From the NCBI GenBank assembly GCA_040755005.1, contig JBFMBV010000004.1, positions 8,013-72,012 on the forward strand: a DNA stretch of 64,000 bases, written 5' to 3'. Each line of letters opens with the position of its first letter. Position 1 is the first letter of the stretch. Shown here in pieces: positions 17,753 through 22,521 of this stretch. The notes under the pieces are model-generated. The model was not told the origin of the DNA. It saw only the letters and a list, made by a program, of their open reading frames with translations, and searched no databases. Source of the stretch: Bacillota bacterium (GTDB taxonomy: Bacteria > Bacillota > Sulfobacillia > JBFMBV01). The position numbers and the translations under genes are program-made.

Positions 17753-18799
17753 CTATAGCTCATCTGGCCCGGGGAACAGCGGGATCAGCCCCGACCGCAC
17801 CGCTGCCCTGATCACTACTGCCGTGACCGGCCCGATGACCAACCCGACCGGGCCAAGCAACCTCAGACCCAAGTAGATCGAGAGCAGTATTGCCAGCGGG
17901 TGAAGCCCCATGCGCTCCCCGATGATTTTGACCTCCAGGAACTGCCTCAACAGGAACACGACAGCGTACAGCACCAGCAGGCCGCTCCCCAGTCCGGCCT
18001 GGCCTGTCGCCAGACTCCACAGGGCCCACGGGACCAAGGCGATCCCCGGTCCCACCATCGGGAGCAGGTCCAGGATGCCGATGCTGATCGCCAGCAGCAA
18101 AGCATAGTCGACCCTGAGGATGAGCAGGCCGGCAAGGGTCGTCGCGGTTGACACGGCGATGAGGAACAACTGCGCCCGGATGAAGCCGAACAAAGACAGC
18201 ATGACTTCCCCTTTGACCTCAAGCAGCTTGCCCCGGTGCGCCCTGGGGACCAGGGTCATCAGGAAGCGTACCAGCTCCCGCTTGTCCCTGCTGATAAAGA
18301 AAGTAGCTATGCCCCCGACCGCGATCATCGCCGCCGCCCCTGGGACCTTGCCCAGGCCCATCAGGACATTGTGCACCAGACGCTCCAACGCCTGATAGAG
18401 GTTGGCGAGAGCAGCTTGGAACGCGTTGGTCACTGGCGGGGGGAGCGACGTCACTAGCTGCGTGTAGCGGCTGAGGATGGCGTCCAGGGCCAAGCTTACG
18501 GCCCGGTAGTACTCGGGTAGGCGCCCAGCCAAAGCCGCCAGTTCAGTGAAGAGTTTCGCTACGGCAAACCCCAACAAGTATATCACCAGGGACAAGACCA
18601 AAGACAAGACCGCCGCGACGGCCAGGCCCCGCTTGAACTTCCCCCTGGCCTCGAGCCAGTCGACGACGGGATCGATCATCAGGGCCAGCAGCCCGGCGAC
18701 GGCGAAGGGAAGAAGCACCGGGAACACATACTTCAGCAGGATGACCAGGACTGCCGCCAGCAGGCAGGCAAAGCCCAGGGACCTCCAGATCTGCTTCAT
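17753..18799 (-). CDS. AI-2E family transporter / YtvI-like integral membrane protein
   Basis: 348-aa polytopic membrane protein with the AI-2E (PerM/YtvI) pattern. It is inserted between cdsA and dxr. Confidence 0.75.
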   Translation of the reverse strand: MKQIWRSLGFACLLAAVLVILLKYVFPVLLPFAVAGLLALMIDPVVDWLEARGKFKRGLAVAAVLSLVLSLVIYLLGFAVAKLFTELAALAGRLPEYYRAVSLALDAILSRYTQLVTSLPPPVTNAFQAALANLYQALERLVHNVLMGLGKVPGAAAMIAVGGIATFFISRDKRELVRFLMTLVPRAHRGKLLEVKGEVMLSLFGFIRAQLFLIAVSTATTLAGLLILRVDYALLLAISIGILDLLPMVGPGIALVPWALWSLATGQAGLGSGLLVLYAVVFLLRQFLEVKIIGERMGLHPLAILLSIYLGLRLLGPVGLVIGPVTAVVIRAAVRSGLIPLFPGPDEL

Positions 18800-19601: not shown

Positions 19602-20348
19602 TCAGCTCCCCTCCCCCAGACCGCCGTAACGTCGCTGCCTACGGGCATAGTCCGCGAAGGCCCGGAGCAGTTGCCTCCGGTCGAAGTCAGGCCACAGCAC
19701 GGTGGAGAACCACAGCTCACTATAGGCGATCTGCCACAACAGGAAGTTGGACACCCGCTGTTCGCCGCCGGACCTGATCACCAGGTCCGGGTCGGGCAGT
19801 CCCGCCGTGTACAGGTGGCGGGAAAACTCAGCCTCGTCCAGCTGGGCGGGCTGGAGCTTGCCCTCGGCGGCTTCCTGGGCGACTTCCCTGGCGGCCCTGA
19901 CCAACTCGGCGCGGCCGCCATAGCTCAGACCCACGTTTACGATGAGTCCCCGGTTCCGGGCGGTACGGCCCAGCGCATCCTGCACCCGGGACTGAAGGGA
20001 CCGCGGCAGTTCATCCAGACGGCCCATCAGCCTAAGCCGCACCCCGCCGCGTTCCAGTTCCTTAAAGCTCTGGTCCAGGAACTCCTCGAGCAGTAGCATC
20101 AACCCTTGGACCTCGTCCCGGGGCCGCCGCCAGTTCTCCGTCGAAAAAGCATAGACGCTCAGGACCTCTACACCCCACTCGCGGCAGACGTCCACGACCC
20201 GCCTCAGGCTTTCGGCGCCGGCCCTATGGCCGGCCAGCCGGGGCAGTCCGCGGCGCGCGGCCCACCGGCCGTTGCCATCCATGATGACGGCCACATGCCT
20301 AGGCACCACAGGCGGGGCGGGGGTGAACAGGCCGCGCCAGCAACGCAT
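19602..20348 (-). CDS. uppS: isoprenyl transferase (undecaprenyl-diphosphate synthase)
   Basis: HVAVIMDGNGRWA...FSTENWRRP motifs. GTG-ATG at the 5' end with the ATG at 20346-20348 taken as start. SD AAGGAGG is 8 nt upstream. Confidence 0.9.
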   Translation of the reverse strand: MRCWRGLFTPAPPVVPRHVAVIMDGNGRWAARRGLPRLAGHRAGAESLRRVVDVCREWGVEVLSVYAFSTENWRRPRDEVQGLMLLLEEFLDQSFKELERGGVRLRLMGRLDELPRSLQSRVQDALGRTARNRGLIVNVGLSYGGRAELVRAAREVAQEAAEGKLQPAQLDEAEFSRHLYTAGLPDPDLVIRSGGEQRVSNFLLWQIAYSELWFSTVLWPDFDRRQLLRAFADYARRQRRYGGLGEGS

Positions 20349-20371
20349 CACCGCAGCCTCCTTGACAGGAC

Positions 20372-20389
20372 GACCCCCATGCGGGGGTC
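20372..20389 (-). promoter_or_regulatory. GC-rich hairpin spanning the stop codon of the small PASTA ORF, in the uppS leader
   Basis: GACCCCC-GCAU-GGGGGUC (7-bp stem), not followed by a U-tract, so it is not a classical terminator. Confidence 0.3.
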
Positions 20390-20587
20390 AACCGGGTTCT
20401 GTCCGACTGCTTGCTCGCGCCACGACTAGGGTCACCGGCCCTGTCGCCGGGCTGTCGACTCTGAGTACCCTGGCCGTACCCGCGGGGCGTCTGTCCCCGG
20501 GATAAGTCCACTGCACCGTCCCCACCTCCACCCCCAGGCGTCGGCATTCCTCAAGGGCTTCGGCGAGGGTCAGGCCCACCAGGTCGG

Positions 20588-20591
<4 letters not shown>
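20388..20591 (-). CDS. small (67 aa) stand-alone PASTA-domain-like protein
   Basis: [59 protein letters not shown] matches the PASTA consensus along its whole length. GTG start forms a GTGA overlap with the frr stop. High GC3 and same strand as the operon. No signal peptide. Confidence 0.45.

Positions 20592-22521
<1,930 letters not shown>

What the first reader, a model, noticed from the sequence alone, without database searches (positions are those of the whole stretch)
20372..20591. Stand-alone 67-aa single-PASTA-domain ORF coupled to frr, ending inside a GC-rich hairpin
Between frr and uppS, where there is normally only a short spacer, lies a 204-nt ORF on the operon strand. Its product aligns over its full length with the PASTA consensus: [59 protein letters not shown].

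It starts with a GTG that overlaps the frr stop (GTGA). Its own TGA lies in the loop-proximal part of a GACCCCC-GCAU-GGGGGUC hairpin that precedes the uppS RBS.

PASTA domains are normally extracellular modules of PBPs and Ser/Thr kinases. A cytoplasmic, single-domain version embedded in the ribosome-recycling and isoprenoid-lipid-carrier operon would be novel. It could also be a decayed remnant.
Basis: partly seen in the sequence, partly recalled or inferred. Interest (0 to 1): 0.5.

Follow-up and report, generated by a model that had tools for sequence, protein, structure and literature searches.

The report
Small cytoplasmic PASTA-fold gene after frr
The 67-codon ORF is a real gene, conserved but unstudied: a small, apparently cytoplasmic protein with the PASTA fold, which is normally an extracellular cell-wall-sensing module, and in many Clostridia-type bacteria it is translated directly off the end of the ribosome-recycling-factor gene.

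Summary
Window 20388..20591 (-) is a 67-aa ORF. Its GTG start overlaps the frr stop (GTGA). Its TGA sits at the foot of a GACCCCC-GCAU-GGGGGUC hairpin, 8 nt before the uppS Shine-Dalgarno sequence.

It is neither a remnant nor an orphan. A frr-anchored survey found a homologous 62-94-aa ORF immediately after frr in 33 of 80 species-representative genomes. These include Peptococcaceae, Desulfotomaculum, Pelotomaculum, Ammonifex, Symbiobacterium, Thermoanaerobacteraceae and Oscillospiraceae. A profile built without the window sequence finds ORF67 at E=6e-13.

- dN/dS is 0.19-0.5 in close pairs.
- In 22 of 33 loci the start lies within -4..+3 nt of the frr stop.
- In one genome frr is followed by ybaB-recR instead of uppS, and the ORF stays with frr.
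- In at least 16 relatives a terminator-like hairpin separates the ORF, or a ferredoxin gene inserted after it, from uppS.

The gene therefore belongs to the frr unit. Its function is unknown. My best guess is a binding or adaptor module for RRF or translation. Databases call it "hypothetical" or, automatically, "PASTA domain-containing". I found no literature on it.

The parts
20388..20591 (-). ORF67: a 67-aa single-domain PASTA-fold protein (GTG start, TGA stop). It is the window's member of a conserved family of small genes coupled to frr.
20588..20591 (-). GTGA overlap: the ORF67 start codon GTG shares TG with the frr stop TGA, a termination-reinitiation coupling site.
   Evidence: One search shows the sequence. 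One search shows the same -4 or -1..+3 arrangement in 22 of 33 family loci.
20601..20614 (-). AAGGAGAAGGAGAT: the frr codons for K-E-K-E-I, which double as a Shine-Dalgarno-like element 9-11 nt upstream of the ORF67 start.
   Evidence: The GGAGAT motif recurs at this position in most carrier loci. The SD role is inferred.
20588..21145 (-). frr (ribosome recycling factor, 185 aa), the invariant upstream partner.
   Evidence: One search gives the ORF. One search gives PF01765 RRF on the identical contig. One search gives homologues at 50-69% identity.
20371..20390 (-). GC-rich hairpin (T)GACCCCC-GCAT-GGGGGTC(G) that begins within the ORF67 stop codon. It is the positional counterpart of the terminator-like hairpin that closes the frr unit in relatives, but here it has no T-run.
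   Evidence: One search gives the fold, with the stem present in both MFE and centroid structures. One search gives the CCCCCTC/GAGGGGG(TT)+T-run hairpins in at least 16 carrier loci. One search shows it is not called as a terminator, because the T-run is missing.
20357..20363 (-). uppS Shine-Dalgarno AAGGAGG, 8 nt after the hairpin.
   Evidence: One search shows the sequence.
19602..20351 (-). uppS (undecaprenyl-diphosphate synthase), the downstream neighbour in this genome.
   Evidence: One search gives the ORF. One search gives PF01255 Prenyltransf.

Best explanation
**Shown**
- ORF67 is a genuine protein-coding gene.
- It belongs to a divergent, previously uncharacterised family of 62-94-aa soluble proteins made of one PASTA-fold domain (beta-alpha-beta-beta-beta).
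- The family motif is DV.G..L.EA...L...G..V....T.PP......G..RV.R.R.
- In many Clostridia-type Bacillota this gene sits immediately after frr.

**Shown by anatomy, inferred as mechanism**
- The gene is translated by coupling to frr. Its start overlaps or abuts the frr stop, and the frr C-terminal codons supply an SD-like GGAG. Its synthesis is therefore slaved to RRF synthesis.
- It is the last cistron of the rpsB-tsf-pyrH-frr unit, or the second-last where a small ferredoxin follows.
- The GC hairpin that starts in its stop codon is the counterpart of the terminator/attenuator that closes that unit before uppS in relatives.
- In this high-GC genome the hairpin has no U-tract. It probably acts only as a weak attenuator or 3'-end stabiliser and lets transcription run on into uppS.

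**Inferred function (about 30% likely)**
- The protein is a cytoplasmic binding or adaptor module that acts with RRF or the translation apparatus. It is not an extracellular peptidoglycan sensor.

**Secondary inference (about 30% likely)**
- A ribosome terminating at the ORF67 stop covers the 5' arm of the hairpin. Active translation of frr-ORF67 would therefore favour read-through into uppS.

**The confidence figure** refers to the identity, family and expression architecture, not to the molecular function.
For: **PASTA homology**
- Pfam PF03793 scores 24.9 bits, above the 23.2-bit gathering cut-off.
- 16 of 32 family members hit PASTA at E<=0.1, best 7.8e-7.
- The family profile hits the S. 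aureus Stk1/PrkC PASTA chains 3m9g and 3py9 at E about 1e-6.

**Real gene**
- An 85%-identical homologue sits at the same place, with dN/dS 0.26 and codon-position differences 4/5/14.
- Other close pairs give dN/dS 0.19-0.50. Five close pairs pooled have 64 of 118 differences at the third position, P=2e-6.
- Members also occur in AT-rich genomes, where long chance ORFs are rare.

**Family and position**
- 33 of 80 frr-anchored species-representative loci carry the ORF.
- An HMM scan of all six frames of 579 kb hits nothing outside the frr 3' junction.
- The leave-out HMM finds the window ORF at E=6.4e-13 over its full length.
- Position-blind protein hits P0009, P0024, P0027 and P0028 all lie right after frr.

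**Coupling**
- The start lies -4..+3 nt from the frr stop in 22 of 33 loci.

**Link to frr rather than uppS**
- L044 has frr-ORF-ybaB-recR.
- Terminator-like hairpins with T-runs follow the ORF, or the ferredoxin after it, in at least 16 loci. In the non-carriers L045, L046 and L051 they follow frr directly.

**Cytoplasmic**
- There is no hydrophobic segment or leader in any member.
Against: - **No expression data.** There is no direct evidence of expression, such as proteomics or Ribo-seq.
- **Atypical codon composition.** GC3 of ORF67 is 0.72, below its neighbours at 0.78-0.86, and GC2 is unusually high at 0.60.
- **Relaxed constraint.** The family evolves fast. dN/dS is 2-4 times that of frr (0.11), and the single sequence finds only one relative in 5.8 and 1.8 billion-protein searches.
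- **Weak structural statistics.** Foldseek against the PDB gives no significant hit, though PBP2x and PknB PASTA give the best superpositions.
- **Partial sequence similarity.** Similarity to classical PASTA covers mainly the N-terminal beta-alpha-beta half.
- **The RRF link is only positional.** No interaction was or could be tested. pI varies from 4.1 to 11.6 across members, which argues against a uniform electrostatic mode such as RNA binding.
- **The hairpin is not a canonical terminator.** It lacks a U-tract, and there is no covariation data for it.
Confidence: 0.75

Rival explanations
1. Decayed remnant or chance ORF. The ORF would be a pseudogenised fragment of a PASTA kinase or PBP, or a spurious high-GC reading frame in an ordinary frr-uppS spacer.
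For: Long chance ORFs are common in this 66.7% GC window, and several overlap the locus. The single sequence looks like an orphan in two very large protein searches. GC3 is lower than in flanking genes.
Against: The frame, length and fold are kept in 33 of 80 representative genomes from many families, including AT-rich ones. dN/dS is 0.19-0.5 with a third-position excess. The leave-out profile gives E=6.4e-13. The start-stop overlap with frr is conserved. No kinase or PBP fragments flank the ORF.
Confidence: 0.03
2. Cytoplasmic sensor of cell-wall precursors. The PASTA fold would bind the stem peptide of UDP-MurNAc-pentapeptide or lipid I/II on the inner face of the membrane. It would tune UppS or lipid-carrier supply, which would explain the position next to uppS-cdsA.
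For: Classical PASTA domains bind muropeptides or lipid II (established knowledge; for example PknB, PMC3145798, listed). uppS is the next gene in the window and in about 20 carrier loci.
Against: The ORF stays with frr when uppS is not downstream (L044). In about a dozen loci a ferredoxin gene lies between it and uppS. A terminator-like hairpin separates it from uppS in at least 16 loci. The C-terminal half and the conserved T.PP...G..RV.R.R loop differ from the classical PASTA consensus. Several solved PASTA domains are not known to bind peptidoglycan (my own knowledge, not tested here).
Confidence: 0.2
3. Ferredoxin partner. The small protein would dock a 55-aa 2x[4Fe-4S] ferredoxin, for example to deliver electrons to the Fe-S enzymes IspG and IspH of the isoprenoid pathway encoded further down the cluster.
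For: A 54-57-aa ferredoxin gene follows the small ORF, often overlapping it, in about a dozen loci: L010, L012, L015, L017-L021, L028-L031 and L092. In L020, an Ammonifex MAG, the two form one 124-aa reading frame.
Against: The window and about 20 other carriers have no ferredoxin at the locus. L022, L023 and L027 have the ferredoxin without the small ORF. The fusion is seen in a single metagenome-assembled genome, and a 1-nt assembly error would create it, because the two genes overlap out of frame in relatives. No further fusion was found among proteins retrieved with an alignment that included the fused sequence.
Confidence: 0.1
4. A purely cis-acting translated spacer. What matters would be the act of translating up to the hairpin, which controls terminator read-through or uppS translation. 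The peptide itself would be irrelevant.
For: The stop codon lies inside or at the edge of the hairpin in the window and in L001, L003, L007, L008 and L013. uppS has no detectable promoter of its own in the 36-nt spacer.
Against: A spacer would not keep a defined fold, a conserved motif and dN/dS below 1 across deep lineages. In many loci the hairpin lies 20 nt or more beyond the stop, or after the ferredoxin gene. This role could coexist with a protein function.
Confidence: 0.07

Closest known systems
PASTA domain (Pfam PF03793) of class B penicillin-binding proteins (PBP2x, PBP1) and Hanks-type Ser/Thr kinases (PknB, PrkC/Stk1, StkP)
   Different: - It is a stand-alone single domain with no membrane anchor, signal peptide or catalytic partner domain, so it is presumably cytoplasmic.
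- It has a longer beta2-beta3 loop with its own conserved T.PP...G..RV.R.R signature.
- Its genomic context is frr, not cell-division or cell-wall genes.
- Its ligand is unknown.
UPF0288 protein (MmarC6_0796) of the archaeal methyl-coenzyme M reductase activation complex, PDB 8s7v chain J
   Different: It is a 499-residue multidomain archaeal protein. Sequence identity is 13-15% with no sequence-level match, and the context is unrelated. The paper describing the complex does not mention PASTA. This is a structural resemblance only.
Small conserved accessory genes inside Firmicute translation operons, such as ylxR/ylxQ between nusA and infB (my own knowledge, not tested here)
   Same: These are short, long-overlooked ORFs held in fixed positions next to a core translation gene, and they are co-expressed with it.
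   Different: There is no sequence or fold relationship. This is an analogy of genomic logic only.

Membership tests
PASTA domain (PF03793) | Sequence match to the family profile above the curated gathering threshold | tested here: met
   E=1.9e-5 and 24.9 bits against a 23.2-bit cut-off, covering residues 1-51; 16 of 32 homologues also match at E<=0.1.
PASTA domain (PF03793) | Small globular fold with one alpha-helix packed on a three- or four-stranded beta-sheet (beta-alpha-beta-beta-beta) | tested here: met
   [not shown]
PASTA domain (PF03793) | Extracytoplasmic module at the C-terminus of a membrane-anchored PBP or Ser/Thr kinase, usually in tandem copies | tested here: not met
   The ORF is 67 aa in total, starts directly with the domain, and has no leader or hydrophobic segment. 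The flanking genes are frr and uppS.
PASTA domain (PF03793) | Binds peptidoglycan stem peptide, lipid II or beta-lactam | not testable with these tools
   This needs purified protein and ligand-binding assays.
frr-coupled small PASTA-like protein family (defined here, alignments A1 and A3) | Full-length match to a family profile built without the query | tested here: met
   44.8 bits and E=6.4e-13 over profile positions 3-66. It is the only hit in the six-frame window.
frr-coupled small PASTA-like protein family (defined here, alignments A1 and A3) | Located immediately 3' of frr on the same strand, with the start within a few nt of the frr stop | tested here: met
   the window has a -4 overlap, and 22 of 33 loci fall within -4..+3; every hit examined lies after frr.
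frr-coupled small PASTA-like protein family (defined here, alignments A1 and A3) | Motif T.PP......G..RV.R.R between beta2 and beta3 | tested here: inconclusive
   the window has T29-Y-P-G...G38-T-A-R41-V42-L-R44-V-D. T, the first P, G, RV and the first following R are kept. The second P is G and the last R is D.
Rho-independent (intrinsic) terminator | GC-rich stem-loop | tested here: met
   a 7-8-bp stem with 6 G:C pairs and a 4-nt loop.
Rho-independent (intrinsic) terminator | U-rich tract directly after the stem | tested here: not met
   the tail is TCCTGTCA, with 3 T in 8. At least 16 relatives do have a T-run after the equivalent hairpin.

The most novel reading that the evidence does not exclude
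A cytoplasmic PASTA protein, made in fixed proportion to RRF, binds RRF or the ribosome and also binds a cell-wall precursor such as UDP-MurNAc-pentapeptide or lipid II. It would thereby couple ribosome recycling and translation capacity to the state of envelope synthesis in Clostridia. This would be an intracellular counterpart of the extracellular PASTA-kinase signalling that is known to target translation factors.
Probability: 0.07. Interest if true: 0.8.

Novelty: new variant of a known kind. Interest (0 to 1): 0.45.

Why it matters
PASTA is treated as an extracellular module of penicillin-binding proteins and Ser/Thr kinases that senses peptidoglycan. Here a stand-alone, leaderless version has been kept for a long evolutionary time. 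It is the gene translationally coupled to ribosome recycling factor across many anaerobic and thermophilic Bacillota, including gut Oscillospiraceae.

This has three consequences:
- It adds an unrecognised component to one of the most conserved housekeeping gene clusters in bacteria.
- It widens the known contexts of the PASTA fold.
- It gives a concrete candidate for a small protein that works with RRF or links translation to envelope or isoprenoid genes.

There is also a practical point. Gene callers label these ORFs 'hypothetical protein', and only some of the carrier loci came back from the public protein collection. Some may not be called as genes at all.

Tried and rejected
- **Single-sequence searches.** The word-indexed search of 5.8 billion proteins returned only the protein itself and one 85% relative. 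Exhaustive phmmer against 1.84 billion representatives added only spurious repeat-protein hits. Taken alone this would have suggested an orphan. The frr-anchored locus survey overturned that.
- **Spurious profile hits.** The top profile-versus-PDB hits were designed 'Pizza' beta-propeller repeats. They arise from summed 5-bit matches to 'G..RVV' and were rejected as repeat artefacts.
- **RNA families.** Rfam found no known RNA family in 20200-20800.
- **Metagenome scans for members away from frr.** The Symbiobacterium-like subgroup A5 ran but found nothing.
- **Literature.** Searches gave no relevant paper. They covered stand-alone or cytoplasmic PASTA, PASTA with RRF, frr-uppS small proteins, and a frr-uppS terminator.
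- **Ideas considered and dropped.** A general RNA-binding protein was dropped because pI ranges from 4.1 to 11.6. A secreted protein was dropped because there is no leader.

Full report
**Observation**

The finding lies on the minus strand. The ORF listing gives a 67-aa ORF at 20388..20591 with a GTG start. It sits between frr (20588..21145) and uppS (19602..20351). Read on the minus strand, the frr stop TGA (20590-20588) shares TG with the ORF's GTG (20591-20589), giving GTGA.

The ORF's TGA (20390-20388) contributes its G and A to the base of the hairpin GACCCCC-GCAT-GGGGGTC (20389-20372). The uppS Shine-Dalgarno AAGGAGG follows 8 nt later. The hairpin is present in both the MFE and centroid folds. 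No Rfam family matches the region.

An ORF of this size is not remarkable in 66.7% GC DNA, and several others overlap it. The case has to rest on other evidence.

**Is it a PASTA domain?**

- The product matches Pfam PASTA at E=1.9e-5 and 24.9 bits, above the curated 23.2-bit threshold. The match covers residues 1-51.
- NCBIfam has nothing.
- An AlphaFold2 model built on 18 homologues has mean pLDDT 81.7, with helix 9-19 and strands 23-28, 40-46 and 53-59.
- Foldseek against the PDB gives no significant E-value, although PBP2x and PknB PASTA give the best superpositions.
- The one recurrent non-PASTA hit is a cytoplasmic archaeal protein, UPF0288, in the MCR activation complex.

I conclude that the protein is a PASTA homologue, although the C-terminal half is divergent.

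**Is it a real gene?**

Single-sequence searches made it look like an orphan. There were two hits among 5.8 billion proteins: the protein itself ('hypothetical protein', Bacillota MAG) and an 85%-identical 67-aa protein. Exhaustive phmmer found nothing genuine beyond these.

The 85% relative lies at exactly the same place after frr. Against it, dN/dS is 0.26, compared with 0.11 for frr. Differences fall 4/5/14 by codon position, P=0.006.

I then fetched the frr locus from 80 species-representative genomes, using frr itself as the query, so that the test was blind to the small ORF.

- In most of the closest relatives the distance from frr to uppS is 240-600 nt, not the 80-110 nt seen in Chloroflexota and Lachnospiraceae.
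- The gap holds a 62-94-aa ORF on the operon strand.
- These ORFs align into one family with the motif DV.G..L.EA...L...G..V....T.PP......G..RV.R.R.
- Half of them hit Pfam PASTA individually.
This covers 33 of the 80 loci, including L014 and L044, which were not in the alignment.
- A profile built without the window and its close relative still finds ORF67 at E=6.4e-13 over its full length.
- Close pairs elsewhere in the family give dN/dS of 0.19-0.50. Pooled over five close pairs, 64 of 118 differences are at third positions, P=2e-6.

The 'decayed remnant' reading is therefore excluded. Carriers include Peptococcaceae, Pelotomaculum, Desulfotomaculum/Desulforamulus, Ammonifex, Symbiobacterium, Thermoanaerobacteraceae, Desulfitobacteriaceae, Oscillospiraceae and the ANGP1 lineage. 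One carrier is the cultured Thermanaerosceptrum fracticalcis (BR63_05075).

**What is it tied to?**

The invariant neighbour is frr.

- In 22 of 33 loci the start lies within -4..+3 nt of the frr stop.
- The frr C-terminal codons (K-E-K-E-I, AAGGAGAAGGAGAT) provide an SD-like element 9-11 nt upstream.
- Proteins found by sequence alone, including weak hits (P0028 at E=9e-3, P0027), all turn out to lie directly after frr.

The downstream neighbour varies. It is uppS in the window and about 20 loci, a 54-57-aa 2x[4Fe-4S] ferredoxin in about a dozen, and ybaB-recR in L044, where the small ORF still overlaps the frr stop.

In at least 16 carrier loci a terminator-like hairpin follows the last small gene and precedes uppS. 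It has the shared core (A)ACCCCCTC-loop-GAGGGGGTT and a T-run. In the non-carriers L045, L046 and L051 such a hairpin follows frr directly. The small gene therefore lies inside the frr transcription unit.

The window's GACCCCC/GGGGGTC hairpin is the positional counterpart of that terminator. It has no T-run. With no promoter-like site in the 36-nt spacer, it probably attenuates rather than terminates.

**Properties of the protein**

No member has a signal peptide or membrane segment. pI ranges from 4.1 to 11.6, which argues against a uniform nucleic-acid-binding role. The conserved features are the hydrophobic core, the helix-capping Gly, and the T.PP...G..RV.R.R loop and strand. That loop is longer than the equivalent PASTA loop and carries large insertions in one clade (L029-L031).

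**Mechanism**

What is shown:
- It is a conserved, selected coding sequence.
- It has a PASTA fold, by prediction.
- It has no export signals.
- Its start overlaps the frr stop.
- It sits upstream of the terminator-like hairpin of the frr unit.

What is inferred:
- Translation occurs by termination-reinitiation from frr, which ties its output to RRF.
- It acts as a cytoplasmic binding or adaptor module with RRF or the translation apparatus. I put this at about 30%.
- A ribosome terminating at the ORF67 stop covers the 5' arm of the hairpin, so active translation would favour read-through into uppS. I also put this at about 30%.

Rivals:
- A cytoplasmic sensor of cell-wall precursors acting on UppS (about 20%). 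This is weakened by L044, by the intervening ferredoxin genes and by the terminators.
- A ferredoxin partner (about 10%). It is supported by adjacency and by one in-frame fusion in an Ammonifex MAG. It is weakened because each gene occurs without the other and because the fusion could be an assembly indel.
- A purely cis-acting translated spacer (about 7%). This is contradicted by fold and motif conservation.
- A remnant or chance ORF (about 3%).

**Comparison with what is known, and novelty**

By sequence threshold and predicted fold this is a PASTA domain. It fails the contextual hallmark of the family, which is an extracytoplasmic module of PBPs and Hanks kinases.

NCBI calls its members 'hypothetical protein'. 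UniRef auto-labels two of them 'PASTA domain-containing protein'. No paper in the searchable library describes a stand-alone cytoplasmic PASTA protein, a link between PASTA and RRF, or a small gene between frr and uppS.

I class it as a new variant of a known kind. The domain is known, but the architecture, the cellular location and the conserved genomic coupling are undescribed.

Interest is moderate at 0.45. It is a genuinely conserved unknown in a core housekeeping cluster, but it has no functional evidence yet.

Noticed in passing
L010:3743-3943, L012:3746-3961, L017:3731-3925, L018:3769-3936, L028:3748-3957, L029:3798-3965, L092:3206-3370; alone in L022:3250-3417, L023:1469-1639, L027:3629-3802: A 54-57-aa 2x[4Fe-4S] ferredoxin gene (MAYRITDECLACGTC...) is inserted between the small PASTA-like ORF and uppS in many Peptococcaceae and Desulfotomaculum-type genomes. 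It often overlaps the small ORF's 3' end. It also occurs without the small ORF in three loci. It is absent from the window. It may serve the Fe-S enzymes IspG and IspH of the same cluster; this is my speculation.
   Followed up: partly
L020:3562-3936 (Ammonifex sp. MAG, DYER01000010.1): The PASTA-like ORF and the ferredoxin form a single 124-aa reading frame. This is either a possible Rosetta-stone fusion or a 1-nt assembly error. It was seen once only.
   Followed up: partly
L003:3833-3847, L005:3772-3791, L010:3950-3973, L015:4070-4091, L017:3933-3959, L018:3942-3970, L019:3978-3995, L020:3946-3969, L021:1730-1753, L028:3967-3991; window 20371-20390: The hairpin that closes the frr unit has a strikingly similar core, CCCCCTC...GAGGGGG(TT), in phylogenetically distant genomes of very different GC content. 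The window version, GACCCCC...GGGGGTC, lacks the T-run. I did not examine whether this is more than a generic terminator.
   Followed up: partly
window 21093-21145 (-); also L001:475-527 and L085:947-999: The pyrH reading frame runs 53 nt into frr, ending in a C-terminal tail ...[20 protein letters not shown]. This is far more than the 8-nt overlap seen in L083. The long overlap is shared with the 85%-related genome.
   Followed up: no
window 17753-18799 (-); L083:5874-6977, L087:5301-6216, L092:5033-6130: An AI-2E family transporter gene (PF01594, E=4e-50) sits between cdsA and dxr in the window and in several carrier genomes. I do not recall this insertion in the classical uppS-cdsA-dxr-rseP order.
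   Followed up: partly
L004 (CAYQIY010000003.1): The record is titled 'uncultured Pseudomonadota bacterium'. However, its frr is 68% identical to the window's, and it carries the Bacillota-type frr-small ORF-uppS arrangement. The taxonomic label is probably wrong.
   Followed up: no
[not shown]
   Followed up: partly
L089:1-3162 (Logan SRR10769912; Oscillospiraceae-type): The public gene call for the small ORF here (P0027, 53 aa) starts at an internal Met. It is a truncated version of the 65-aa P0026, which suggests these ORFs are mis-called. In this genome pyrH-frr is preceded by a divergent dnaG rather than rpsB-tsf, yet the small ORF is kept.
   Followed up: partly
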